From a virus: a DNA stretch of 41,162 nt. The position numbers and the translations under genes are program-made. How positions within the stretch are numbered: the first letter of the stretch is position 1; each line of letters opens with the position of its first letter. The stretch is from positions 1 through 41,162 of the IMG/VR virus record IMGVR_UViG_3300009709_000009. One strand, written 5' to 3'. The notes beneath the pieces were generated by a model that was not told where the DNA came from, did no database searches, and worked only from the letters and a program-made list of their open reading frames with translations. Below, one piece after another: positions 13,720 to 32,088 of this stretch.

Positions 13720-14388
13720 TCATGCATCCTCCCTGACAATATTTTTATCATAGCTCTTTCGATAGCCAAAGTCTATGCCTGAGTATCCCGTTGTTTTCGT
13801 GACATGATGCTGGCAGTATCGGCTTTTCAGGTGGCGTGTATGAGAGCAAAACCTATGATTTTCTGGTCCCGATGTTAAAGGATAGAAACATCCAGTGTTT
13901 TCGACCAATGATAGACCTGGCAACCTTCCAATCTCGTATTCATCAAGACCCGGATCAAAGTATGTAGCTGTTTTCGTCCCATGGAATTGTGGATGAACGC
14001 GTCCTGCATTCGAGATAGTCTTTGCCTTCTTAGGCTTATCTGGTGATGATGCACGACGACTAGGCATGATAGACCTGTTGCGTTGAGCAAGAAGTTGAAC
14101 AGCGTTTGTTGTCACACCCATTTCTGAGGCTATTTCCTCGTATGTCTTACCCTCTTTCCATAGCTTTCCGGCTTTTACAATATCCAGGTTCTGAATAAAA
14201 GACCCTCTTTTTTTAATCCCTTCCTTTGTTGGAAACAGGTCCTTATTCCGGCTTGCCATTCCTGAAACCATGTTTCGGGTTATTCCATATTCCTTTGCTA
14301 TATCGAGATATGATTTGTCATTTGCCCACATAAGAGCGCATGCCTGAATGATCTCCGGCGTCCAGCGCCAGCTTGCACGAGGGGTCAT
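13720..14388 (-). CDS. GcrA-like cell-cycle regulator with a duplicated N-terminal HTH (222 aa from ATG 14388).
   Basis: There are two copies of the GcrA N-domain pattern: W-TPEIIQACALMWANDKSYLDIAKEYGITRNMVSGMASRN and IVKAGKLWKEGKTYEEIASEMGVTTNAVQLLAQRN. The GcrA-type C-terminus is GCFYPL..GPENHRFCSH...SRYCQHH. An AAGGAGA RBS lies 7 nt before ATG 14388. Confidence 0.75.
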   Translation of the reverse strand: MTPRASWRWTPEIIQACALMWANDKSYLDIAKEYGITRNMVSGMASRNKDLFPTKEGIKKRGSFIQNLDIVKAGKLWKEGKTYEEIASEMGVTTNAVQLLAQRNRSIMPSRRASSPDKPKKAKTISNAGRVHPQFHGTKTATYFDPGLDEYEIGRLPGLSLVENTGCFYPLTSGPENHRFCSHTRHLKSRYCQHHVTKTTGYSGIDFGYRKSYDKNIVREDA

Positions 14389-14546
14389 TTGGAATTCTCC
14401 TTCTGATAACGCCGCACAGCTAACACCAATTGAGACATACATTCCGCACTGTGCTTTCCCGCCTTATGCGCTTCAACTTCTTTGATTAGGACTTCCACCA
14501 GGTGGTTGCGTGAGCCGCCTTTGCGGGAGTTGTTAGGGTCGTACAT
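14385..14546 (-). CDS. Hypothetical 53-aa protein, translationally coupled to the GcrA-like gene.
   Basis: Not in the track because it is under 60 aa. I translated it by hand as MYDPNNSRKGGSRNHLVEVLIKEVEAHKAGKHSAECMSQLVLAVRRYQKENSK. A GAGGAG RBS precedes it. Its stop forms an ATGA overlap with ATG 14388. Confidence 0.5.
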   Translation of the reverse strand: MYDPNNSRKGGSRNHLVEVLIKEVEAHKAGKHSAECMSQLVLAVRRYQKENSK

Positions 14547-15747: not shown

Positions 15748-15776
15748 TTCATTTCTCCACTCGTTTCAATAGCCCC

Positions 15777-15804
15777 ACACTACACCATAGCAAACGCATG
15801 TCAA
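15777..15804 (-). promoter_or_regulatory. Candidate leftward sigma70-type promoter.
   Basis: Minus strand: TTGACA (15804-15799), a 16-nt spacer, then TAGTGT (15782-15777), about 30 nt upstream of the first leftward ATG. Confidence 0.45.
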
Positions 15805-16200
15805 CATAAAATGTGAGAAAAAGTTAAGTCATTGATTTTGTTAATTATCTCGTTTTTTCTCTAAAAATCTCAACAGAAAAGAGAGGTATGTTTTCTTTTA
15901 AAATCAATGACTTAAATTACGTTTACACATTATTTCGGGATTTCGGTATATAAGGGGTAATATTGGCAATCATAATATCAGGAGTCCTATAAGGGGTAAG
16001 CACTTGATTTTATTAAATAATAAAGATTCTAACCTATACAGTATCTAGAGATACTATATTCTTCTTTACCCCTCTATTACAGGAAAAGCCGAGATAATGT
16101 GTAAATGCATGCTAAAACATTGAAAAGTAAAAACAATCCTTATCTCAAAAATCAATGTATTTTAGCGGGATTATGTGTAAAACAAAAAACACCGACAAGG
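15805..16200. promoter_or_regulatory. AT-rich divergent control region or candidate origin with three repeat families.
   Basis: Family A: AAAATCAATGAC(TTAA) at 15900-15915, its perfect 16-nt inverted copy at 15824-15839, and a partial copy at 16147-16158. Family B: ATAATGTGTAAA at about 16094-16105, TTATGTGTAAAA at about 16171-16182, and an inverted copy at about 15921-15933. Family C: TATAAGGGGTAA at 15949-15960 and 15988-15999, plus an inverted AGGGGTAA at about 16067-16074. A further palindrome, agtatct-ag-agatact, lies at about 16050-16065. Confidence 0.6.
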
Positions 16201-16201
16201 G

Positions 16202-16230
16202 TTGACAAGCTCCAAATGATGGATTATTCA
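16202..16230 (+). promoter_or_regulatory. Candidate rightward sigma70-type promoter.
   Basis: TTGACA (16202-16207), a 17-nt spacer, then TATTCA (16225-16230). It is followed by an AAGGAGAAAA RBS and ATG 16263. Confidence 0.5.
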
Positions 16231-16262
16231 TAAATAATTACTTTTATAAAGGAGAAAACAAA

Positions 16263-16481: not shown

Positions 16482-16495
16482 GGGAATGATTGAAA

Positions 16496-18844
16496 ATGGC
16501 AATTTCATATCTTCAGCAGTTTGCTGAATCGGGTAATCGCGTCTTCTCTTTGGAAAGCATTGACGGCATTTATTGCGGTTGCGGCAATACAAAATGCACA
16601 GCCACAGGCAAGCATCCTGTTTCCGCCAATTGGCAAAATACACCAGAATGGGACGAGGATCAGATTGACGGCTTGAATGCCATGATAGAGCATTTGGGGC
16701 GAGGATTCGGCGTTCTCTGCAACAATCTTCTTGTTGTTGATGTTGACGCCAAGAATGGCGGCATTGAATCATATGCTCGTCTATTGGAGAGATTCCCTGA
16801 TGTTGCCAGCGCTGGATTGATCGTAGAAACTGGCTCTGGTGGAGGCTCTAAGCATCTTTATTTCTCTTTGCCCGCTGATATTCACACGATCCAGTCAAGC
16901 CCTGAATTTCCGGGGATCGATTTCAAGCATACTGGTTTTGTTGTTGGGCCTGGGTCGCCGCACAAGAGCGGCAAAAAATATAACGTCCTTTCTGGCAATG
17001 TTGATGAGATTGATAAGGCTCCTGAGGGACTGGTTGCTTTTCTGAAGCGACCAGAGAGAAGGCATGTCGAATTTGAAGGCTCCAGCACAGACATTAGCGA
17101 TAATTCTCTGCGTTCAATGTTGGGTTGCTTGACATGCTACGATGAATATTCCGATTGGGTTAAGATCGGCATGGCAATCCATGACGCAACGCAGGGGAAT
17201 GGCGTTGCAATATGGGATGAATGGTCTAAGCGTAGCAGTAAATATAATCCTGAATCCATAGACATACGCTGGCATTCATTCGGCAAGTCTTCCAATCCTG
17301 TAACTGTTGGCACGTTGATCAAGCTGGCAAAAGACAGTGGATGGATTGAACGAGTTGAAATGGACGATGTTCCACTGCAAGGTTGGTTTGCTAAGGCTTT
17401 AACCGGATCTTCTGTCACTGAAGGGATGACTAAGGAAGACATTAAGGATGTAAAAAGCCCGCTCAAGGGGTGCCCTGTCGATGTGTCTACGATTGATCTT
17501 ACTATGCCTCCAGGCTTTTGTGGGGAAGTGACGCGATGGATAAATACGCAGTGCCGTTATCCACGTCTAAACCTTGCTGCAATGGCTTCTCTATATGCTA
17601 TTGGCAATATATCAGGTCTAAACTACGCAGTAGATGACAATTCACAAACTCGTGCCAATATGGCTTTGTTTTGTGTTGCTGGCTCTGGAACGGGCAAGGA
17701 TGCAGTTCTCGAGGCTGTCAGTAAAATAATAATCACAGCTGGAATGTCCGAATGCAACCACGGTAAGATTAAGTCTGACCGTGAAATGTATCAAAACCTG
17801 ATACACCATCAAGCAGCATTCTATACTATTGACGAAGTCGGAGCACATCTGGCTAAGATTAGCAACGCTGGACGTTCTGGAGCTTCTCACCTTGAAGGTG
17901 TTATTGAAACGTTCATGGCCGTATACAGTAAGGCTGAATCTTTTCACATCCTTGGAGGAGATGACAAAAGAGAACTAAGTAAAATTTTGCGTGACCGTCT
18001 TTCTTTCTATGCGCGAAAGGTGGAGGAAAACGAAGACGTTCAAGAAAGCAAAATGCATATTGAAGCTATCAAAAAACGCCTATTGAATGCAGACAGATTG
18101 GTGGAACCGTTCCTTTCATTAGCTGGATTTACCACTCCGACGCAGTTTTCAAGAATGATGACAATTGAGAATGCAGAAACTGGTTTTCTTGGTAGAACAA
18201 TTATGTGCGTCGAGCCTGACATTAATCCTTATCCCAACCAAGGCTTTACGAAAGAGAACATGCCACTGGGAATGAGTATGAAAATATCGCAGCTGGCTAG
18301 TGCAGGGTCAACCAAGACCGAAGGAGAGAGGATTGAACGTAGAGGCGATTTGCATCTCGTAAAAATGACAGACGAGGCAAAAAAACTTATTGATCGTTGC
18401 ATGATATGGGTAGTTGATTACAACCAGAGTAAGATTGAATTAGGCCTAGAGCCTTTCTCAGGACTTTACCGTCGAGTTTGTGAGAAGGCGATTAAGATGT
18501 CTCTTATTCTTGGTATTGCAGATGGAGAGATCGACGTTGAACACGTTAAGTGGGCTATGGCTGCATCAATGCGCGATGTTGAGGAAAAGGTCAGCGCCAT
18601 TACGATTGAAGATAAGTCGTTCTCGAAGTCTGATAAGCTTGTAGCTTCAATTCTAAAATGCGTTAAAAACAAACCTGGCCAAACTTTTTCTTATATCTTT
18701 GGAAGATCGAACATCCGCGGGAAATATCAACGGGAAGACGTTCAAAAGGTAATAACAGCTATGGTTCAAAAGAATGAATTGCGCGTTCAAGTAGACACAG
18801 ACAAACGCAACGGGGAAAAGTTAGAACGATATTTCATACGTTAA
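16496..18844 (+). CDS. PrimPol (AEP primase-polymerase) / PriCT / DUF3987-type P-loop helicase fusion (about 782 aa).
   Basis: AEP motifs LLVVDVDAKNGG, TGSGGGSKHLYF and GFVVGPGSPHKSGKKY. PriCT-like YSDWVKIGMAIH...WDEWSK...W.SF. Walker A CVAGSGTGKDAV. The likely start is ATG 16496; the track starts at TTG 16490. Confidence 0.85.
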   Translation: MAISYLQQFAESGNRVFSLESIDGIYCGCGNTKCTATGKHPVSANWQNTPEWDEDQIDGLNAMIEHLGRGFGVLCNNLLVVDVDAKNGGIESYARLLERFPDVASAGLIVETGSGGGSKHLYFSLPADIHTIQSSPEFPGIDFKHTGFVVGPGSPHKSGKKYNVLSGNVDEIDKAPEGLVAFLKRPERRHVEFEGSSTDISDNSLRSMLGCLTCYDEYSDWVKIGMAIHDATQGNGVAIWDEWSKRSSKYNPESIDIRWHSFGKSSNPVTVGTLIKLAKDSGWIERVEMDDVPLQGWFAKALTGSSVTEGMTKEDIKDVKSPLKGCPVDVSTIDLTMPPGFCGEVTRWINTQCRYPRLNLAAMASLYAIGNISGLNYAVDDNSQTRANMALFCVAGSGTGKDAVLEAVSKIIITAGMSECNHGKIKSDREMYQNLIHHQAAFYTIDEVGAHLAKISNAGRSGASHLEGVIETFMAVYSKAESFHILGGDDKRELSKILRDRLSFYARKVEENEDVQESKMHIEAIKKRLLNADRLVEPFLSLAGFTTPTQFSRMMTIENAETGFLGRTIMCVEPDINPYPNQGFTKENMPLGMSMKISQLASAGSTKTEGERIERRGDLHLVKMTDEAKKLIDRCMIWVVDYNQSKIELGLEPFSGLYRRVCEKAIKMSLILGIADGEIDVEHVKWAMAASMRDVEEKVSAITIEDKSFSKSDKLVASILKCVKNKPGQTFSYIFGRSNIRGKYQREDVQKVITAMVQKNELRVQVDTDKRNGEKLERYFIR

Positions 18845-24835: not shown

Positions 24836-24924
24836 AATGAATTGAGCGGATAGGACGGCCATCCGAAAAGCAATTACGCTGATTGCCTGCCGCTATTTCA
24901 AAAGCGAACCTTAGCGAGGTTTAT

Positions 24925-25440
24925 ATGACGGAAATATCCCCAGAATATCTTAGATCTATTTTGACTTATTATCCGGATAATGGTCTTCTTTTCTGGAAAT
25001 ACAGGGAAGATTATTACAAGAGATGGAACGTTAGATATGCCAACAATCAGGCGTTCAATGTTACCTCTGATAGTGGATATTATAGAGGTTCCATAAATAA
25101 AAGATGGTTCCAAGCGCACAGAGTGGCGTGGGCTATTCATTATGGTGAGTGGCCTAGTGATATATTAGATCACATAAATATGGTAAAAACAGACAATAGA
25201 ATATGCAATTTAAGAATTGCTAGCAAATCAAAAAATGCAATGAACATAAGAAAACATTCAGATAATAGATCTGGATATAAAGGTGTAGACTTTAGCAAGG
25301 TAAGTAACAAATGGAGAGCTAGGATAATGAAGTTAGGAGTAAATTATAATCTTGGATTTTTTGATAGTAAAGAAGAAGCATATGAAGCTTATTGTATAGC
25401 GGCATCTAATTTACACAAAGAGTTTAAGAGGACAAAATGA
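24925..25440 (+). CDS. HNH_3 plus AP2-domain homing endonuclease-like protein (171 aa), AT-rich.
   Basis: HRVAWAIHYGEWP..ILDHINMVKTDNRICNLR (HNH_3) followed by SGYKGVDF..SNKWRARI...NLGFFDSKEEAYEAY (AP2). GAGG lies 6 nt before ATG 24925. Confidence 0.8.
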   Translation: MTEISPEYLRSILTYYPDNGLLFWKYREDYYKRWNVRYANNQAFNVTSDSGYYRGSINKRWFQAHRVAWAIHYGEWPSDILDHINMVKTDNRICNLRIASKSKNAMNIRKHSDNRSGYKGVDFSKVSNKWRARIMKLGVNYNLGFFDSKEEAYEAYCIAASNLHKEFKRTK

Positions 25441-26116: not shown

Positions 26117-26338
26117 ATGCCCAGCAAGATGTACTCTACCAGAGACTACGAAGACGTTCTCGAAGGTCGTTTATTTCTGGTAGACGTGTCTCAGGCGACT
26201 AGAGATCACGTGGTGCAGACGATACGCAAGAAAGCTAGTGAAATAGCGAGCCAGCGTAGATGGAACGCTAATGATTTTCCTTGGTATTTGCGAAAAGAAT
26301 TGCAGCAAGCGATTGACAACATACTAGACAATATGTAA
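26117..26338 (+). CDS. Hypothetical protein (73 aa).
   Basis: ORF track. GAGGG RBS. Confidence 0.55.
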   Translation: MPSKMYSTRDYEDVLEGRLFLVDVSQATRDHVVQTIRKKASEIASQRRWNANDFPWYLRKELQQAIDNILDNM

Positions 26339-26347
26339 AGGTGAATT

Positions 26348-26542
26348 ATGACCACAGTGGCTATCATAGCGAAGTCTCTATGTTCATTAATGGTAGACGT
26401 GGAGATGTCTGGATATCAACCGATCAATGCTTATTTCGCGGCAAGTGGAAACGAATTGCCGTATAATATGTGGATCAGCCTGACAAACAGCATATACGAT
26501 ATGCAGCAGGCACAAGATGAAGTGGAGAGATGCAATGGTTAA
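26348..26542 (+). CDS. Hypothetical protein (64 aa).
   Basis: ORF track. AAAGGTGA RBS. Confidence 0.5.
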   Translation: MTTVAIIAKSLCSLMVDVEMSGYQPINAYFAASGNELPYNMWISLTNSIYDMQQAQDEVERCNG

Positions 26543-26611
26543 TTCAGTGTGGATATATGGCTTGGTAGCGTTTGCTATCATTGCTGTTGGATATGTGGAA
26601 GGATTGCCGGT

Positions 26612-28012
26612 ATGACCATCCCAGATGAAGCAGTGCAGGCAGCACAGAACGAGTTCAACAAATTCGGCTATACCGCCCCCAATGAAAAGGAGTTGATTGC
26701 CGCCATCACAGCCGCCCTGCCTTTCCTGCAAGGGGTGAAGGTGAAGGCGCTGGAGTGGCCTAAAAAGCTGGAGTTTAATCATGTGCTTGAGGCTGGGGTA
26801 GCGCGTTACCGGCTGATAAACTCATACGATGATGTTTATAGATGTTCGGTAGTGCCATACGATGACGACGCAGCCGACTTATGCGGAAATACGACCTTAG
26901 AAGGCGCCAAAGCCGCAGCGCAGTCCGACTATGAGGCTCGTATAAGGTCCGCAATCGAGTTGTTAGGAAATTCCGAACAACTCAACGATGTGCATACTAC
27001 GCACACCCTTTCTGAGCAGACGACCGATATGGGAAATCCCATAACGCTCGATATCGGAAAACCGATAACGGACAAAACTACGCAGATGGTTATTGCTGAG
27101 GCCATTGAGAATGTATGGTGGCAGACGAGGGATTGTGATGTTGAAGAAATAGATAGCATTATCGATCACTTGCGCAACAATGGCTTGCTGGTTGTTGGAA
27201 GTCAGCGCTTTCAACAGATGGCAGATGCCATCCAACAAGCGTCAGCTTATCTCGCCTTAACGCAACCCAACAGCGCAGAAAAATTACTCGCTGATCTTGA
27301 TGCAGCATTGAAACCCGTTGCGGGAATTCCCGTTTCGTCCCCATCCCTACGCGCGCAGGCGTTGGAGGAAGGTAAGCAGCTATATGGTCCATTCGGCCAT
27401 TTGACCGGGGATAGAAACCTTTCAGAGGATACGTGGGAGGTTTATGACGAACCTGCCGCCACTGTCGGAGATATTTTTTCGATCCCTCTTTATGCCCTCT
27501 CCGACCCATTCAAGGAAATCGGCTTAGATGTGGATGTCAAAGCAGATGTTCTGTCACCTGATCCCGCTCAGTATCTTGAGATGGCAGTACAGGTTGCCGA
27601 TAAGGCAAATAAAGGCTGGCTGAAAAAGCGCGATGTGACCGCCAACAAAAAAGAAGCTAGCGATTATGAGACAATGGCTATTGCCGCCTCTCATATATCC
27701 ACAGCAATCCGCGCCCTCTCGTCTCAGTCTGTAGCGGACGAGGGCAAGGGCGAGTGGCGCGAAATTGAATACAATCACGCCTTGAAAGGTCGCCGCGTTA
27801 ACCCTGCATATTTTCCATCCACTGGCGAGGTTTGCGAAATCAGCGGACCTAATTGCGATGACGATAAGGGTTATACGTGGGGCGAAACCACAGTCCTATG
27901 GCAAAATGAAATGTTCGTTCTCTATGGGAAAGATGGGTATTGGCCTGTCCTTCATAAGCATGAACACGTCCTGTTTCGCCCCCTCCCAGACTCACCAGGA
28001 GCGTCGGAATGA
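26612..28012 (+). CDS. Large ORFan (466 aa from ATG 26612).
   Basis: ORF track. The track starts at GTG 26549; ATG 26612 has GGAAGGA 9 nt upstream. I recognised no catalytic motif. Confidence 0.6.
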   Translation: MTIPDEAVQAAQNEFNKFGYTAPNEKELIAAITAALPFLQGVKVKALEWPKKLEFNHVLEAGVARYRLINSYDDVYRCSVVPYDDDAADLCGNTTLEGAKAAAQSDYEARIRSAIELLGNSEQLNDVHTTHTLSEQTTDMGNPITLDIGKPITDKTTQMVIAEAIENVWWQTRDCDVEEIDSIIDHLRNNGLLVVGSQRFQQMADAIQQASAYLALTQPNSAEKLLADLDAALKPVAGIPVSSPSLRAQALEEGKQLYGPFGHLTGDRNLSEDTWEVYDEPAATVGDIFSIPLYALSDPFKEIGLDVDVKADVLSPDPAQYLEMAVQVADKANKGWLKKRDVTANKKEASDYETMAIAASHISTAIRALSSQSVADEGKGEWREIEYNHALKGRRVNPAYFPSTGEVCEISGPNCDDDKGYTWGETTVLWQNEMFVLYGKDGYWPVLHKHEHVLFRPLPDSPGASE

Positions 28013-28314
28013 GTAATCAAGAACCGATGTTCCCGATCCTCAACGATCCTATGATCAAGAGCATCCCTTGGGCGGTGATGTTGCCTCACGAGAAGCAGGC
28101 ACAGCGCAACCATAGTCAAACCTTACGAGGGCTTGCAGGACGCGGAGGGTTAAGCATCCATGAAGCCTACCACATTATCAGAGATGAAGAGTGGCCTTAC
28201 CGCACATTCAAGCGAAGCAAGCTCAATGATGCCAAGTACAGGATGCAACTCATGATCGTACTGCATGAGTTCGAAGCCACCCGCCCGACAGGAGGCAGCA
28301 ACCATGGCGAATGA
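28009..28314 (+). CDS. Hypothetical protein (101 aa).
   Basis: ATGA overlap with the upstream stop. SIPWAVMLPHEKQAQRNHSQTLRGLAGRGGLS is a pattern I have seen in prophage hypotheticals. Confidence 0.6.
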   Translation: MSNQEPMFPILNDPMIKSIPWAVMLPHEKQAQRNHSQTLRGLAGRGGLSIHEAYHIIRDEEWPYRTFKRSKLNDAKYRMQLMIVLHEFEATRPTGGSNHGE

Positions 28315-28984
28315 AAAAGGTCCGCTATTAACGGCTCTAGAGGAAGTTAGAAAAACTCCCACCATAACATCTCAAGCCCTAGCCGCACGCTCTGCTAAGA
28401 ACACCCTCCCCGCCGTGCCGGTCGAGGGGTTGGATCGGTATGGGCTGAACTGGCACGACGAAATGGAGCCGAATAGTGAAGGCGATTACGTCCTTTTCTC
28501 GCAGTCCGAGGCCAACATTGCGGCGGAACTCACTATGCAAGTAGAGATAGCTCAATTAAGGCATCTTTATACTCACTTAGTTAATGGGACATTTAAAGAT
28601 GTTAAAGAATTAGCCAATGGTCTTTTATCTACAGTGATTGCTAGTCTTGAAAGACAACTCGAAGCGAAGGATGCGCGGGTTAAGGAGTTGGAGGCTGAGA
28701 ATGCCGCTCTCGAAAAACAGGCCTTGCGGGACCGTAGTCTAGCGAACGAAACGCATAGCGATGCAACTCTTTGGCAATTCTCCGTCGATATGGGCGACCA
28801 TCCTTCATTGCTCGTAAAGGTCTGGATGCAGCGCAAAGCCCTCGAAACCCAACTCGCGGCGGCTCGGAAGGCGTTGGAAGATATGGTGTCCGAATACGAT
28901 GCGGTCGATCTATCCCACGACGAACCGGCGTCAATGGTTTCAGCAGTTGAAGTTGCCCGCGCCGCCTTGGAGTCCAAGCCATGA
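28304..28984 (+). CDS. Coiled-coil protein (226 aa from ATG 28304).
   Basis: AGGAGG lies 9 nt before ATG 28304. The central region LERQLEAKDARVKELEAENAALEKQAL looks like coiled coil. Confidence 0.55.
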   Translation: MANEKGPLLTALEEVRKTPTITSQALAARSAKNTLPAVPVEGLDRYGLNWHDEMEPNSEGDYVLFSQSEANIAAELTMQVEIAQLRHLYTHLVNGTFKDVKELANGLLSTVIASLERQLEAKDARVKELEAENAALEKQALRDRSLANETHSDATLWQFSVDMGDHPSLLVKVWMQRKALETQLAAARKALEDMVSEYDAVDLSHDEPASMVSAVEVARAALESKP

Positions 28985-29187
28985 AGGATTATTGCGCAGA
29001 ATGCGGTTGTAAGCTCCCACTTCACATGCTCGATGCTAAACCCACAATGACATTTTGGCTCCGCCTTGTTTCGCTGTTTCGCGGGCAGTCCTTCATGCTC
29101 ATGTATGCTGCGCACCGTGGATACGACTTTGACCGCCTCGAATGTCATGTCTGCTACGGCGATGGATACGTGGAGGTCAAGCCATGA
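28981..29187 (+). CDS. Small zinc-ribbon protein (68 aa).
   Basis: CAECGC...CHVCYGDG. ATGA overlap with the upstream stop. Confidence 0.5.
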   Translation: MKDYCAECGCKLPLHMLDAKPTMTFWLRLVSLFRGQSFMLMYAAHRGYDFDRLECHVCYGDGYVEVKP

Positions 29188-29408
29188 GCCTCGAATACAT
29201 CAAAGATTATTATTGTGTTCCAGCTCGCATTGGCGGTCGCATCAAATACACCGGCGACAAGCAACCTCAGTATGGAACGATTGAAGGCGCGCGCAATCAG
29301 TATCTTCTAATTCGCCTTGATGGTGAGAAACATGAACCGGGTTCGTACCATCCAACTTGGGAACTGACCTATCTGGAAAGCAGCGCACTAGGGGAGCAGA
29401 GCGAATGA
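29184..29408 (+). CDS. Hypothetical protein (74 aa).
   Basis: ATG 29184 overlaps the upstream stop (ATGA). Confidence 0.5.
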   Translation: MSLEYIKDYYCVPARIGGRIKYTGDKQPQYGTIEGARNQYLLIRLDGEKHEPGSYHPTWELTYLESSALGEQSE

Positions 29409-29638
29409 AGTTGACCAAAGCACGATTTGCTACCGTTTACAGCACCGTGGCGTTACTGACTTTCGGTTACGCTTCGACTGATCCACGGTTTTCATGCGGG
29501 AGCGGCGCTCTTGCTCCAGAGGGCGACATGTCTTGTGCTGTTATGTTGGGCGCGACCTTAGCAGCGCCTGCATGGCCGATATTCTGGACGTGGGAAGGCT
29601 TCTCTATCGGTCGCCAAGACCTGAAAGGAGGGGAGTGA
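29405..29638 (+). CDS. Small membrane protein (77 aa).
   Basis: Hydrophobic segments VYSTVALLTFGYA and AVMLGATLAAPAWPIFW. ATGA overlap with the upstream stop. Confidence 0.5.
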   Translation: MKLTKARFATVYSTVALLTFGYASTDPRFSCGSGALAPEGDMSCAVMLGATLAAPAWPIFWTWEGFSIGRQDLKGGE

Positions 29639-29952
29639 TGACTCCAAGAGGTAAAATTCTAGAGGATATTTCAGACATAGCAGAATCTCATAATCTAATC
29701 CTTAAGGATTTATTAAATCCAGGTAGGTTTAAACATATCGTAAAAGCAAGAAACGAGGCTATGTGGTACGTTCATGAAAAATATGATAGATCTCTTACGC
29801 AGATAGGAAATATATTTAATATGCACCATTCCACAGTTTTAAATGGAATTGGAAGTCACATGGCAAAATCTGGAATAAAAGATGAGTGGGCCGATATTTA
29901 CCATCAAAGAAAAGAACGGAAAAGGATCAATCGTGAGATGCAGCGGGCCTAG
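29638..29952 (+). CDS. DnaA domain IV-only (DnaA-box-binding HTH) protein (104 aa), AT-rich.
   Basis: LKDLLNPGRFKHIVKARNEAMWYVHEKYDRSLTQIGNIFNMHHSTVLNGI aligns by eye to the DnaA C-terminal DNA-binding domain (..R...v.aR..AMyL....t..Sl..IG..F...HsTVl). A strong AAAGGAGGGGAG RBS precedes it. Confidence 0.7.
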   Translation: MTPRGKILEDISDIAESHNLILKDLLNPGRFKHIVKARNEAMWYVHEKYDRSLTQIGNIFNMHHSTVLNGIGSHMAKSGIKDEWADIYHQRKERKRINREMQRA

Positions 29953-30340
29953 ATCTGCGTTGTTTTGGTTCGTCAATGTCGCCGGTCAATATTCCAACCC
30001 GAGATGACAAGACTTCAACTTGCGTAGTGAGGCGGTTAATATCCCGCCTCATTAGATCCATGCTGGATATCAATGTGTTTTGAAGAGCGTCTGTTCTTTC
30101 ATTGGCTCTTTGCAGGCCAAACTCCAACTGATCAACGCGATATGCTATTTTACTAATGTCAGCAGTAGTTGCCTTAAGCTCAGAATTTTCTTGTGATAGA
30201 GATGAAACGCTTTTTTGCAGGTCATTCAAATTGGTACCAACATAGTATCCTAGCCCCAATATCATAACGACAGTAGGCAGATTTACCCGAAACCAATTTA
30301 GAGTTACCGTAGAATCGCTTTTCATTTCATCCGCTGACAT
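29927..30340 (-). CDS. Type-II membrane coiled-coil protein, i-spanin-like (137 aa).
   Basis: N-terminal TM LPTVVMILGLGYYVG followed by ~100 aa of heptad-like helix. It is the last gene of the lysis cassette. Confidence 0.5.
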   Translation of the reverse strand: MSADEMKSDSTVTLNWFRVNLPTVVMILGLGYYVGTNLNDLQKSVSSLSQENSELKATTADISKIAYRVDQLEFGLQRANERTDALQNTLISSMDLMRRDINRLTTQVEVLSSRVGILTGDIDEPKQRRSRPAASHD

Positions 30341-30567
30341 TTATAAGCCCCATAACGCCCACGATGCTGTGCTACTTGCTGGGCGAAGGGTCTATCATTC
30401 TCAACGATATATCTTGCCGTTTGTTCCGATGGTGACATTAACACAAGTACATCACATGGGCTAGTTATCGCAGTCGATGAGCAAGACGCCATTGACAATA
30501 CGATTAAAGAGAGTAATGTTACTTTCAATGAACAAAGAAAGGCATTACCAGTGGTAAAATATGGCAT
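30322..30567 (-). CDS. Small lipoprotein, o-spanin-like (81 aa).
   Basis: Signal plus lipobox LLSLIVLSMAS-C. An AGGAG RBS lies 6 nt before ATG 30567. Confidence 0.55.
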   Translation of the reverse strand: MPYFTTGNAFLCSLKVTLLSLIVLSMASCSSTAITSPCDVLVLMSPSEQTARYIVENDRPFAQQVAQHRGRYGAYKCQRMK

Positions 30568-31138
30568 GTTAACTCCTATTGTTCGAGTTAAAGGAGATAG
30601 ATGGAGATTTAAGTGCGATTGCGGAAATGAAAAAGAAATATGTATGTGCCATGTTAAATCTGGAAAAATAATTAGTTGTTCGTGCTTTGGTAAGAAAAAT
30701 AGCCATAAAATTACTCATAAGAAAACAAGGACCCCATCTTATGTTTCTTGGGTAGGAATGAAGGGTAGGTGCCTCAATAAAAAAGATAGAGTTTTCCACA
30801 TGTATGGAGGAAGAGGTATTAAAATCTGTGAAAAGTGGATGACTTTTGAAGGTTTTTTTGAAGATATGGGTGAAAGAGAAAAAGGTTACACCCTTGAAAG
30901 AATAGATGTAAATGGAAATTATTGCGCAGATAATTGCCGATGGGCAACTCAATCCGAGCAGTCTAGAAATAGAAGGGTGTCTATAGATGTTGAAATTAAC
31001 GGTTTGGTTAAAAAACTTCCTGAGTGGTGTCATGATTTTAAAATTCCACCAAATGTAGCATTAAAAAGGATAAAAAGGGGATGGAGTGAAGTCGATGCCA
31101 TAACGATACCTATTCGCAATCAATCAATAGGCAGATAA
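30551..31138 (+). CDS. HNH_3-like (His-to-Arg variant) endonuclease / DNA-binding protein, AT-rich, antisense to the lysis cassette (190-195 aa).
   Basis: N-terminal Cys cluster CDCG...CMCH...CSC. YGGRGIKICEKW..FE.FF.DMG...GYTLERIDVNGNYCADNCRWATQSEQSRN is a widespread phage HNH-like pattern. The start is GTG 30551 or ATG 30566. Confidence 0.65.
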   Translation: MVKYGMLTPIVRVKGDRWRFKCDCGNEKEICMCHVKSGKIISCSCFGKKNSHKITHKKTRTPSYVSWVGMKGRCLNKKDRVFHMYGGRGIKICEKWMTFEGFFEDMGEREKGYTLERIDVNGNYCADNCRWATQSEQSRNRRVSIDVEINGLVKKLPEWCHDFKIPPNVALKRIKRGWSEVDAITIPIRNQSIGR

Positions 31139-31313
31139 GACCATCATCATCAGCAGCATAAACGGCAGCGTCAACTTTCTTACCATCTTTCAAAACCTCA
31201 ACTTTGTCACTTGCAAGCTTCTGCAGAACAGATTGGCGACCTGCTCCATATGCAAGCCAAATAACCCACGCTACAAAAAGATAACCTATAAACTTAACTA
31301 TCGGAAAGTTCAT
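31110..31313 (-). CDS. Single-TM small membrane protein, holin or lysis accessory candidate (67 aa).
   Basis: TM IVKFIGYLFVAWVIWLAYGAG. It overlaps the endolysin 3' end by 20 nt. Confidence 0.5.
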   Translation of the reverse strand: MNFPIVKFIGYLFVAWVIWLAYGAGRQSVLQKLASDKVEVLKDGKKVDAAVYAADDDGLICLLIDCE

Positions 31314-32088
31314 GACGAATATCCTTGATTGCTTTTACAATCCACCCACGCAGCGCTAGACCACCAATAAGCACAAAAACAGCTACTGCAGCCAGAGCAA
31401 GAAGCTCACGCCATCCAAAGCCAGCAAGACCTAGAGCGCCAATTCCGCCGCCTGAGAAAATAGTACCAAGCCAACCTGCAAGAGAGAATTTCTTTTTCAC
31501 CTCTTTATCTACAGAGGTGGGCATTACTGGCTTATCTACTTCCTTAGTGATAACCGAGGGCCTCTCAGGAGTTGGTTGTGAAGCCAAACCAAGTGCAAAG
31601 TCACGCACATTAGAAACGCGCTTTCCCCATCCCTTTCCAAATGTTGGCCAAGTCTTGAGACGCTTAAGAAAAGCAAGCCTGGTGTCGCACAAGGAGTTAA
31701 TTACATTCCTTGCACCCATTTCTTTAATGGCTGCAAGGGTTTTAGGTCCAACCTTGCCATCCTGAGAGACTCCGACAACCTTCTGAAGGTCCTTAACTGC
31801 TCTTACAGGACCACTATTGACTGCGTAGTCAAATACCGCGAAGTCAACGCCATCAGGCAATTCTGCTCCATGTACCTTATCCCAATACTGGCGACGATAA
31901 ACCGTCTCGATCTGTGCATCAGTTATCTTGCGTAGATCGTCCTTTGTCCCTTTTGGGTTTACGAATGAACGGAACGTAGCAAGCGTTACGCCTTTCATAG
32001 TTGCCCCGCCAGGGTCTTTAGGGTGGTCAGACCAGCCACCCTCATGTTTCAAAACCTCTTTGAGGCTTACTTTAAAGTTTCTGTCCAT
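31294..32088 (-). CDS. Endolysin: GH108 muramidase, PG_binding_3 domain and two C-terminal TM helices (264 aa).
   Basis: LKHEGGWSDHPKDPGGATMKGVT (GH108), QDGKVGPKTLAAIK (PG_binding_3), and the C-terminal hydrophobic segments LAGWLGTIFSGGGIGALGLAGFGW and LLALAAVAVFVLIGGLAL. Confidence 0.85.
   Translation of the reverse strand: MDRNFKVSLKEVLKHEGGWSDHPKDPGGATMKGVTLATFRSFVNPKGTKDDLRKITDAQIETVYRRQYWDKVHGAELPDGVDFAVFDYAVNSGPVRAVKDLQKVVGVSQDGKVGPKTLAAIKEMGARNVINSLCDTRLAFLKRLKTWPTFGKGWGKRVSNVRDFALGLASQPTPERPSVITKEVDKPVMPTSVDKEVKKKFSLAGWLGTIFSGGGIGALGLAGFGWRELLALAAVAVFVLIGGLALRGWIVKAIKDIRHELSDS

What the first reader, a model, noticed from the sequence alone, without database searches (positions are those of the whole stretch)
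29638..29952. Stand-alone DnaA domain IV protein as the last gene of the replication operon
The 104-aa product aligns by eye only to the C-terminal DnaA-box-binding HTH of DnaA (K.R.EAM......T..SL..IG..F...HSTVL). It has no AAA+ domain. The gene is conspicuously AT-rich compared with its upstream neighbours (by eye), so it looks recently acquired. It has one of the strongest RBSs in the window. A DNA-binding-only DnaA fragment could occupy host DnaA boxes and block or reprogram initiation at the host oriC. It could instead mark the phage origin. Together with the GcrA-like gene, the phage carries mimics of two of the master cell-cycle regulators of alphaproteobacteria.
Basis: partly seen in the sequence, partly recalled or inferred. 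Interest (0 to 1): 0.65.

Follow-up and report, generated by a model that had tools for sequence, protein, structure and literature searches.

The report
Phage stand-alone DnaA DNA-binding domain
The gene really does encode only the DNA-binding end of the bacterial replication initiator DnaA, but the same gene at the same place is already annotated in all Brucella phages, it is not a recent acquisition, and what DNA it binds is still unknown.

Summary
Confirmed: window 29638-29952 (+) encodes a 104-aa basic protein that is only a DnaA domain IV helix-turn-helix. It matches Pfam Bac_DnaA_C at 48 bits (cut-off 31.5). The AlphaFold model's 12 best PDB matches are all DnaA domain IV.

It is not new as a kind. 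It matches PHROG 27829 ('DnaA-like replication initiation protein'). It is the positional orthologue (49% identity) of Brucella phage Tb gp33, which is present in all 41 Brucella phage records searched. BFVD and metagenomes hold many short phage proteins of this type.

'Recently acquired' is not supported. The low G+C (36-40% against 51-55% upstream) recurs in every orthologue, at the same position, under purifying selection (dN/dS 0.10-0.18).

It cannot be an initiator because it has no AAA+ domain and no domain I. Only 2 of the 6 base-reading residues of E. coli DnaA are identical (R399, H434) and one is a conservative change (T435S). Canonical DnaA boxes are not enriched in the phage.

Best reading: a site-specific DNA-binding regulator made at the end of the rightward arm. 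Its leading candidate target is the repeat cluster in the divergent control region at 15.75-16.26 kb. Occupation of host DnaA boxes and a GafY-like late-gene activator role remain live rivals.

The GcrA-like gene is real (13723-14442, minus strand).

The parts
29625..29631 (+). Shine-Dalgarno sequence AAGGAGG, 6 nt upstream of the ATG, inside the 3' end of the upstream ORF
   Evidence: Sequence. Only 3 AAGGAGG in the whole window.
29638..29952 (+). CDS for a 104-aa stand-alone DnaA domain IV-type helix-turn-helix protein (pI 9.7). Orthologue of Brucella phage Tb gp33.
   Evidence: Pfam, PHROG, PDB and Foldseek matches. Synteny. dN/dS 0.10-0.18 and pI.
29725..29727 (+). Codon for Arg30, the equivalent of E. 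coli DnaA R399 (minor-groove 'basic loop' arginine); conserved
   Evidence: HMMER alignment to 1j1v. Residue roles from PMC2533591 and PMC7561715.
29794..29871 (+). Helix-turn-helix: helix residues 53-60 and recognition helix 64-78. The motif N-M-H-H-S-T-V-L-N replaces DnaA's G-R-D-H-T-T-V-L-H (D433H, H434 kept, T435S, H439N; also P423T at Thr54).
   Evidence: Model secondary structure. Alignments.
29884..29946 (+). C-terminal basic helix (residues 83-103), matching the last helix of DnaA domain IV. It is absent from the 72-aa Tb gp33. The TAG stop aligns with a Leu codon (TTG) of the closest relative, whose protein goes on to end ...LIDAA.
29405..29638 (+). Upstream 77-aa ORF (PHROG 25159, unknown function). 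Its stop overlaps the ATG of the DnaA-like gene (TGATG), so translational coupling is likely.
29927..30340 (-). Convergent gene (PHROG 23521, weak Rz-like spanin match), the last gene of the leftward lysis/structural arm. It overlaps the DnaA-like CDS by 26 nt.
15750..16262 (.). AT-rich (31% G+C) divergent control region between the two arms. It holds TTGATTTT x4 (15832+, 15900-, 16004+, 16148-), TTTACACATWAT x3 (15922+, 16094-, 16170-) and TATAAGGGGTAA x2. It is a candidate target of the protein by inference only.
   Evidence: Parallel cluster in Tb.
16490..18844 (+). Prim-Pol / PriCT-2 / DUF3987 primase-helicase-type protein (784 aa), the more likely true replication initiator of the phage
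13723..14442 (-). GcrA-like gene (240 aa), orthologue of Tb gp04
   Evidence: Pfam GcrA 46.8 bits against cut-off 26.9. Tb annotation. phmmer E 1.5e-45 to the Tb locus.

Best explanation
The gene encodes a small basic protein that is a complete DnaA domain IV and nothing else. It is the orthologue of brucellaphage gp33 (PHROG 27829).

It has no AAA+ module and no domain I, so it cannot oligomerise on ATP, unwind DNA or load a helicase. It is a DNA binder, not an initiator.

It is made as the last, translationally coupled gene of the rightward early/middle arm. It most likely binds, as a monomeric helix-turn-helix plus a minor-groove arginine, to short sites that are related to DnaA boxes but are not canonical ones.

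The leading candidate sites are the repeats clustered in the phage's own AT-rich divergent control/origin region (TTGATTTT in this phage, TTGATCCC/GATCCCA in Tb). Binding there would either switch transcription between the two arms or help the Prim-Pol helicase start replication.

Shown: the identity, the fold, the lack of other domains, conservation, synteny, purifying selection and the divergence of the base-reading residues. Inferred: that it binds DNA, which sites it binds, and the consequence of binding.
For: Identity and fold.

Not a full DnaA: 104 aa, and 45 bits against a cut-off of 410 on the DnaA equivalog models.

Orthology and fixed position: the gene is at the end of the early arm in Tb, in all 41 Brucella phage records and in three metagenomic relatives. 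A DnaA_C gene holds the same end-of-operon position in the unrelated pelagiphage HTVC010P.

Purifying selection: dN/dS 0.10-0.18.

Base-reading residues: R399 and H434 are kept and T435 becomes S. P423, D433 and H439 are replaced (residue list from PMC2533591 and PMC7561715). PMC7561715 notes that Thermotoga maritima DnaA keeps only a single arginine of these residues.

No canonical boxes: they are not enriched in the window (12 found against 9.7 expected, none perfect).

Repeats: the most strongly clustered words in each genome lie in the divergent control region. TTGATTTT has 4 of its 5 genomic copies there (P about 1e-7) in the window. In Tb, GATCCCA has 7 of 8 copies within 320 bp and GATCCCAA 5 of 5. 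TTGATCCCA shares 7 of 9 bases with the alphaproteobacterial G-box form of the DnaA box (G-box description in PMC4468827).

The repeat word and the recognition helix differ together between the two lineages: HHSTVLN with TTGATTTT, HHSGIAY with TTGATCCC.

Precedent: DnaA-like helix-turn-helix proteins act as transcription activators of phage-derived gene clusters in the same bacterial order (GafA N-terminus and the small DnaA-like gene upstream of gafA homologues; PMC9638019, PMC11150451).
Against: No binding data of any kind exist.

The repeats lie 13 kb from the gene. They could belong to any other early protein, to the C-terminus of the primase-helicase or to the host polymerase. The TTTACACATWAT copies look like -35 regions of promoters, though the promoter scan is not above chance.

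The co-variation of helix and repeat rests on two lineages only.

HTVC010P shows no comparable cluster.

Most family members keep the canonical D-H-T/S motif (87 of 141), and the 45 related loci show no DnaA-box clusters within about 6 kb of the gene. For the family as a whole this fits a host target better.

No GafZ/DUF6456 partner was found among the ORFs scanned.
Confidence: 0.4

Rival explanations
1. Host-directed decoy. The protein occupies DnaA boxes at the host oriC and at DnaA-regulated promoters. Because it has no AAA+ domain it blocks DnaA oligomer assembly. This stops new rounds of host replication and re-tunes the DnaA regulon during infection. It would act alongside the GcrA-like protein as part of a takeover of the host cell cycle.
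For: It is a true homologue of DnaA domain IV, with the minor-groove Arg and His434 conserved.

Across the family, 87 of 141 members keep the D and 115 of 141 keep T or S in the D-H-T motif.

Phage DNA within about 6 kb of these genes shows no canonical DnaA-box clusters, so a host target is plausible for the family.

Other phage contigs combine a DnaA_C gene with GcrA (L052), a CtrA-type Trans_reg_C domain (L051, L053/54) or GapR (L049/50). Tb and this window carry GcrA-like genes.

22% of family members end in Ala-Ala. From general knowledge, this is the type of C-terminus that ClpXP recognises, and it would suit a short-lived regulator.
Against: In this protein three of the six base-specific residues differ from the canonical set (P423T, D433H, H439N). 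Efficient competition for canonical boxes is therefore doubtful.

This protein ends in RA, not AA.

There are no data on any host phenotype.

The gene is expressed last in the early arm, which is late for a takeover function.
Confidence: 0.3
2. GafY-like late-gene activator. The DnaA-type helix-turn-helix is used as a transcription factor that recruits or modifies host RNA polymerase at the leftward (structural/lysis) promoters. This would be the phage counterpart of GafA-N/GafY, which activates gene transfer agent clusters in Rhodobacterales, Caulobacter and Hyphomicrobiales.
For: GafA carries an N-terminal DnaA-like DNA-binding domain that is needed to activate the GTA promoters. In Hyphomicrobiales, including Brucellaceae, a small separate DnaA-like gene precedes the gafA homologue (PMC9638019). 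GafY and GafZ are direct activators and anti-terminators of the Caulobacter GTA cluster (PMC11150451).

By general analogy (not tested), the last place in an early operon is a typical location for a late-gene switch. A DnaA_C gene holds this place in the window, Tb and HTVC010P.
Against: No direct comparison with GafY or GafA was possible because no sequence was on hand.

No DUF6456/GafZ-like partner was detected among the 31 ORFs scanned with Pfam.

The window protein is much closer to real DnaA (Pfam E 1e-12) than GafA is reported to be (HHpred E 8.5e-07 or greater, PMC9638019).
Confidence: 0.2
3. Non-functional remnant of a captured dnaA gene, or a mis-called ORF.
For: The Brucella phage version is shorter (72 aa) and lacks the last helix. 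One paper states that brucellaphage Y17 lacks the 'replication initiation factor' yet is strongly lytic (PMC11836647).
Against: dN/dS is 0.10-0.18. The gene has a strong ribosome-binding site. It is conserved at 46-71% identity across diverged phages with fixed synteny. A confident fold is predicted. The gene is present in all 41 Brucella phage records searched. The Y17 statement could not be checked and may reflect annotation only.
Confidence: 0.03

Closest known systems
Brucella phage Tb gp33 (YP_007002041.1) and its copies in all lytic brucellaphages (Perisivirus); PHROG 27829 'DnaA-like replication initiation protein'
   Same: It is the same family (PHROG E 1.5e-20; 49% identity over residues 9-75). 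It holds the same position as last gene of the early arm, convergent with the spanin/endolysin genes. It shows the same low G+C against high-G+C upstream genes. It has the same N-M-H-H-S start of the recognition helix.
   Different: The window protein is 104 aa and keeps the N-terminal MTPR segment and the last, basic helix of domain IV. Tb gp33 is 72 aa and ends right after the recognition helix. The recognition helices differ after HHS (TVLNGIG against GIAYAIT). No function has been tested for either.
Domain IV of the chromosomal initiator DnaA (E. coli 1J1V, M. tuberculosis 3PVP/3PVV, A. aeolicus 1L8Q/2HCB)
   Same: The fold is the same (TM 0.57-0.71). The minor-groove Arg (R399) and His434 are conserved, and Thr435 is replaced by Ser. 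The protein spans almost the whole domain, about residues 380-460 in E. coli numbering.
   Different: There are no domains I-III, so no ATP binding, no oligomerisation and no helicase loading. P423, D433 and H439 are replaced by T, H and N. Identity is only about 25%.
GafA N-terminal DNA-binding domain / GafY, activators of gene transfer agents in Alphaproteobacteria
   Same: They are small DnaA-like helix-turn-helix modules that control a phage-type gene cluster in the same bacterial class, including stand-alone small genes in Hyphomicrobiales (PMC9638019, PMC11150451).
   Different: Homology to the window protein was not tested. GafY works with GafZ (DUF6456), and no such partner was seen here. 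GafA's similarity to DnaA is described as tentative, whereas this protein passes the Pfam threshold easily.
Short 'Chromosomal replication initiator, DnaA C-terminal' proteins of uncultured Caudovirales (BFVD/UniProt) and of pelagiphage HTVC010P-type podoviruses
   Same: They are stand-alone or N-terminally extended DnaA_C proteins of 75-200 aa in phage genomes. Many carry the H-H variant of the recognition motif. In HTVC010P the gene is again the last gene of an operon that converges on the late genes.
   Different: They share only 20-40% identity, come from different phage types and hosts, and often have extra N-terminal segments. None has been characterised.

Membership tests
DnaA (chromosomal replication initiator, TIGR00362/NF001154) | AAA+ ATPase domain III (Walker A/B, arginine finger) and domain I | tested here: not met
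   The protein is 104 aa and its only domain is Bac_DnaA_C. It scores 45 and 39 bits against the full-length models, whose cut-offs are 410 and 344. The match is confined to model positions 353-433.
DnaA (chromosomal replication initiator, TIGR00362/NF001154) | The six base-specific DnaA-box residues R399, P423, D433, H434, T435, H439 | tested here: not met
   R30 and H64 are identical and S65 is conservative. T54, H63 and N69 replace P423, D433 and H439 (alignment; residue list from PMC2533591 and PMC7561715).
Pfam Bac_DnaA_C (PF08299) domain | Score above the gathering threshold over most of the model | tested here: met
   48 bits against 31.5, covering model positions 7-66 of 69.
Pfam Bac_DnaA_C (PF08299) domain | DnaA domain IV fold (helical bundle with helix-turn-helix and basic loop) | tested here: met
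   AlphaFold2 pLDDT 87.7. The 12 best PDB matches are all DnaA domain IV, with TM 0.57-0.71.
Pfam Bac_DnaA_C (PF08299) domain | Binding to DnaA-box DNA | not testable with these tools
   Needs EMSA, DAP-seq or ChIP-seq. Canonical boxes are not enriched in the phage.
PHROG 27829 / brucellaphage gp33 'DnaA-like replication initiation protein' | Profile match over the whole family model | tested here: met
   E 1.5e-20, covering profile positions 3-69 of 72. tblastn gives 49% identity to all 41 Brucella phage records.
PHROG 27829 / brucellaphage gp33 'DnaA-like replication initiation protein' | Conserved genomic position (last gene of the early arm, convergent with the spanin-like gene and endolysin) | tested here: met
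PHROG 27829 / brucellaphage gp33 'DnaA-like replication initiation protein' | A role in replication initiation, as the name says | not testable with these tools
   The name rests on homology only, and no experiment was found in the papers searched. One report says a lytic brucellaphage lacks the gene (PMC11836647); this is unverified.
GafY / GafA-N type activators of gene transfer agents | Sequence homology to GafY or to GafA residues 1-59 | not tested
GafY / GafA-N type activators of gene transfer agents | A partner with a GafZ/DUF6456 domain encoded next to it or fused to it | tested here: not met
   No DUF6456 hit among the 31 window ORFs scanned with Pfam. Not all ORFs of the window were scanned.

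The most novel reading that the evidence does not exclude
Phages of Alphaproteobacteria repeatedly carry DNA-binding-only or stand-alone copies of the host's cell-cycle DNA-binding proteins. These are DnaA domain IV, GcrA, CtrA-type winged helix and GapR.

They would serve as a toolkit that occupies the host regulators' sites and reprograms the cell cycle during infection. Many members would be cleared in a timed way by ClpXP through a C-terminal Ala-Ala tail.

The window's gene would be the DnaA arm of that toolkit, and the GcrA-like gene at 13.7-14.4 kb a second arm.
Probability: 0.15. Interest if true: 0.7.

Novelty: new member of a known kind. Interest (0 to 1): 0.3.

Why it matters
As a database fact it adds little. 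The gene family, its name and its pairing with a GcrA-like gene are already in the Brucella phage annotations and in PHROGs.

What is still open, and made more concrete here, is the function. The protein cannot initiate replication. Its base-reading residues differ from those of DnaA. The two phage lineages compared carry different, strongly clustered repeats in their control regions that resemble degenerate DnaA boxes.

A single binding experiment (DAP-seq or EMSA) on phage DNA and host oriC would decide between a phage switch/origin factor and a host DnaA decoy. If it is a decoy, brucellaphages would provide a natural inhibitor of replication initiation in Brucella. If it is a switch factor, it would tie phage late-gene control to the GafY-type regulators of gene transfer agents.

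Tried and rejected
1. Canonical DnaA boxes as the phage target. TTATCCACA with up to 1 mismatch gives 12 hits against 9.7 expected, none perfect and with no cluster. The pair at 26469 and 26548 lies inside small coding genes. There is also no enrichment in 45 related loci.

2. Repeats or an origin inside or next to the gene itself. Nothing was found in 29300-30400 apart from short chance repeats and an 11-bp hairpin inside the convergent gene.

3. TTTACACATWAT as DnaA-like boxes. There are three exact copies in the control region. Each is followed at promoter-like distance by a -10-like hexamer, so they look more like -35 elements. The promoter scan is not above chance. This is left open.

4. 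Recent horizontal acquisition. Rejected, because the low G+C and the position are shared by all orthologues.

5. Relatives in bacterial genomes or plasmids. Two scans of the GTDB species genomes with narrow patterns found none, and tblastn against plasmids found none.

6. Direct comparison with GafY/GafA. No sequence was obtainable. NCBIfam gave only fragments of the DnaA models.

7. A general repeat signature in another DnaA_C phage (HTVC010P). None was seen.

8. A TTATAAGA cluster at 21.9-22.1 kb. It lies in a small coding gene and was dropped.

9. The report that brucellaphage Y17 lacks the gene (PMC11836647). Y17 is not in the phage collection, so this could not be verified.

10. The original structure paper on DnaA domain IV could not be opened. 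The residue list was taken from two papers that cite it.

Full report
THE OBSERVATION

The ORF is there as described. It runs from ATG 29638 to TAG 29950-29952 and encodes 104 aa. The start is secure for three reasons. The Shine-Dalgarno sequence AAGGAGG ends 6 nt upstream, and it is one of only three copies of that heptamer in the window. The ATG overlaps the stop of the upstream ORF (TGATG). All close homologues begin MTPR. An in-frame ATG at 29494 is therefore not the start.

The product is a DnaA domain IV and nothing else:
- Pfam Bac_DnaA_C scores E 1.3e-12 and 48 bits against a gathering score of 31.5, covering positions 7-66 of the 69-position model.
- phmmer against PDB sequences finds only DnaA: M. 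tuberculosis DNA-binding domain (E 1e-4) and E. coli domain IV (E 3e-3).
- A profile of 41 family members hits DnaA structures at E 1.8e-17.
- An AlphaFold2 model has mean pLDDT 87.7 and six helices. Its 12 best matches in the PDB are all DnaA domain IV, with TM 0.57-0.71.
- Full-length DnaA models of NCBIfam match only at their positions 353-433. The scores are 45 and 39 bits against cut-offs of 410 and 344.

There is no AAA+ domain and no domain I.

THE SETTING

The window is a whole phage genome of the brucellaphage type. Its only DNA matches in the phage collection are 41 Brucella phages, at about 77% identity in patches.

Two arms diverge from an AT-rich region at 15.75-16.26 kb.
- The rightward arm encodes a Prim-Pol/PriCT-2/DUF3987 protein (16490-18844), an AAA_24 protein, a 3'-5' exonuclease, a DEAD/ResIII helicase, an HNH-AP2 endonuclease and a VRR-NUC nuclease.
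- Next come about nine small or unknown genes at 26.1-29.6 kb, all in PHROGs of unknown function.
- The DnaA-like gene follows as the last gene of this arm. It meets the end of the leftward arm head-on and overlaps a spanin-like gene (29927-30340) by 26 nt. The GH108 endolysin lies at 31294-32088.

'Last gene of the replication operon' is right as to order and strand. The nearest recognisable replication genes, however, end 3.8 kb upstream.

ALREADY KNOWN AS A KIND

The protein matches PHROG 27829, 'DnaA-like replication initiation protein', at E 1.5e-20. It is 49% identical over residues 9-75 to a 72-aa protein of all 41 Brucella phage records. That protein is annotated as 'putative DnaA-like protein', 'putative replication initiation factor' or 'chromosomal replication factor'.

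In Brucella phage Tb this protein is gp33. It sits at exactly the same place: the last gene of the early arm, convergent with a hypothetical gene and the endolysin. Three metagenomic relatives (63-69% identical, 108-110 aa) show the same order of genes.

Tb also carries an annotated GcrA-like gene, gp04. The window's counterpart at 13723-14442 (minus strand) passes the Pfam GcrA threshold at 46.8 bits against 26.9.

More widely, a search of 1.84 billion representative proteins with the family profile gave 2444 hits at E up to 0.001. BFVD holds dozens of 79-290-aa phage proteins named 'Chromosomal replication initiator, DnaA C-terminal'. I found no paper that tests the function of any of them.

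NOT A RECENT ACQUISITION

The gene has 35.9% G+C, against 50-55% in the six genes upstream and 46% overall.
- The same step is seen in every orthologue. Tb has 37.9% against 53.5% upstream. The Logan relatives have 38.5% against 51-54%. The IMG/VR relatives have 38-40% against 53-55%.
- The position is fixed in all of them.
- dN/dS is 0.10-0.18.
- The window also contains several other low-G+C genes, and many late genes have equally low third-position G+C.

The compositional step is an old, shared feature of this phage group.

WHAT THE PROTEIN CAN AND CANNOT DO

Without domains I and III it cannot bind ATP, form the DnaA filament, open DNA or load a helicase. The name 'replication initiation protein' rests on homology only. 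The Prim-Pol/helicase-type protein at 16490-18844 is the more likely initiator.

The protein is basic (pI 9.7). It keeps the helix-turn-helix and the preceding loop.

Two papers (PMC2533591, PMC7561715) list the six residues of E. coli DnaA that make base-specific contacts, citing the crystal structure. Using the HMMER alignment to chain 1j1v, they map as follows:

| E. coli DnaA | Window protein | Status |
|---|---|---|
| R399 | R30 | kept |
| P423 | T54 | replaced |
| D433 | H63 | replaced |
| H434 | H64 | kept |
| T435 | S65 | conservative |
| H439 | N69 | replaced |

PMC7561715 notes that Thermotoga maritima DnaA keeps only one arginine of this set. From my own knowledge, it reads a different box.

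In the wider family, the D433 position is D in 87 of 141 sequences and H in 32. The H-H variant seen here is therefore a sizeable sub-group. It is common in lytic podoviruses, including HTVC010P-type pelagiphages.

WHERE MIGHT IT BIND?

Canonical DnaA boxes are not enriched in the window (12 hits with up to one mismatch against 9.7 expected, none perfect). They are not enriched in 45 related loci either. The only close pair lies inside coding genes. There are no repeats in or next to the gene.

The divergent control region (15750-16262, 31% G+C) does hold the most strongly clustered words of the genome:
- TTGATTTT, 4 of 5 genomic copies, two on each strand (P about 1e-7).
- ATGTGTAA / TTTACACATWAT, 3 of 3 copies.
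- AGGGGTAA, 3 of 5 copies.

The homologous region of Tb holds GATCCCA (7 of 8 genomic copies within 320 bp), GATCCCAA (5 of 5) and TTGATCCC (4 of 7). They are partly phased at 9-10 bp. TTGATCCCA shares 7 of 9 bases with the G-box form of the alphaproteobacterial DnaA box, TGATCCACA (G-box description in PMC4468827).

The two lineages thus have related words, TTGAT+TTT against TTGAT+CCC. They also have recognition helices that differ after H-H-S (TVLNGIG against GIAYAIT). This is suggestive, but it rests on two lineages, and the repeats could belong to another protein. HTVC010P shows no such cluster. The TTTACACATWAT copies may simply be -35 regions (one search is inconclusive).

MECHANISM

The explanations are ranked as follows.

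1. Phage-directed DNA binder (0.4). It acts on the control/origin repeats, as a switch between the arms or as a helper of the primase-helicase.

2. Host-directed decoy (0.3). It sits on DnaA boxes and blocks DnaA. This fits the family at large better than it fits this member, because most relatives keep the D-H-T/S motif and have no nearby boxes of their own. It also fits a recurring theme: other phage contigs combine a DnaA_C gene with GcrA (L052), with a CtrA-type Trans_reg_C protein (L051, L053/54) or with GapR (L049/50).

3. GafY-like late-gene activator (0.2). GafA of Rhodobacter needs its N-terminal DnaA-like domain to activate the gene transfer agent promoters. Hyphomicrobiales, including Brucellaceae, have a separate small DnaA-like gene in front of the gafA homologue. 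GafY and GafZ activate and anti-terminate the Caulobacter cluster (PMC9638019, PMC11150451). A DnaA_C gene is also the last gene of its operon in HTVC010P, a typical place for a late switch. No GafZ-like partner was found here, and I could not compare sequences.

4. Dead remnant. This is very unlikely given the selection and conservation.

NOVELTY AND SCORE

This is a new, longer member (104 aa, full domain IV) of a known and already annotated phage gene family, in a new relative of the brucellaphages. The 'recent acquisition' reading is wrong, the 'two mimics' point is already in the annotation, and the proposed functions remain untested.

Interest is modest (0.3). The value lies in a sharp, cheap experiment that would settle what a widespread class of phage proteins does.

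The most novel reading not excluded is a toolkit of DNA-binding decoys of the alphaproteobacterial cell-cycle regulators, some with a ClpXP-type tail. I give it about 0.15.

Noticed in passing
Family-wide (P0002-P0153); window 29938-29952: 33 of 153 family members end in Ala-Ala. That is 22%, against about 1% expected from composition and 3.3% of control ORFs from the same loci. This is the kind of C-terminus recognised by ClpXP. The window's protein ends QRA because its TAG aligns with the Leu codon (TTG) of the closest relative, which goes on to ...LIDAA. The GcrA-like protein of L052 also ends in AA.
   Followed up: partly
window 15750-16262: The AT-rich (31% G+C) divergent control region holds TTGATTTT x4 (two per strand), TTTACACATWAT x3, TATAAGGGGTAA x2 and a palindrome near 16040-16060. 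The homologous region of Brucella phage Tb has a different but related cluster, GATCCCA/TTGATCCC, with 7 of its 8 genomic copies in 320 bp. It is probably the origin and/or promoter-operator region.
   Followed up: partly
window 30551-31138 (+): An HNH endonuclease gene (PHROG 374, E 2e-52; G+C 35%) lies on the opposite strand inside the leftward lysis cassette, between the spanin-like genes and the endolysin. Tb has no gene at that place. It looks like a mobile homing-endonuclease insertion.
   Followed up: partly
window 24883-25440 (+): A second low-G+C (34%) HNH_3 + AP2 endonuclease gene lies between the helicase and the VRR-NUC nuclease.
   Followed up: no
L051 1914-2518; L053 5493-7354; L052 7001-13429; L049 651-6261: Unrelated phage-like contigs pair a stand-alone DnaA_C gene with other alphaproteobacterial cell-cycle or nucleoid protein homologues. 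L051 has a 98-aa Trans_reg_C (CtrA/OmpR-type) protein right next to it. L053/54 have a 204-aa Trans_reg_C protein. L052 has GcrA. L049/50 have GapR.
   Followed up: partly
L056 (Pelagibacter phage HTVC010P) 26998-27531 (-): The DnaA_C-containing 177-aa protein, annotated as hypothetical, is again the last gene of an operon that converges on the end of the late genes. This is the same topology as in the window and in Tb.
   Followed up: no
window 26117-29638 (+): A block of about nine genes with clearly higher G+C (50-55%) than the rest of the genome (46%), all of unknown function. This block, rather than the DnaA-like gene, is the compositional outlier on the high side. Tb shows the same pattern.
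   Followed up: no
window 13723-14442 (-): The GcrA-like protein (240 aa) has the GcrA match at residues 93-214. It also has two similar N-terminal helix-turn-helix-like segments (sigma-70 region 4-type hits at residues 93-121). It lies just upstream of the small terminase gene, as in Tb.
   Followed up: partly
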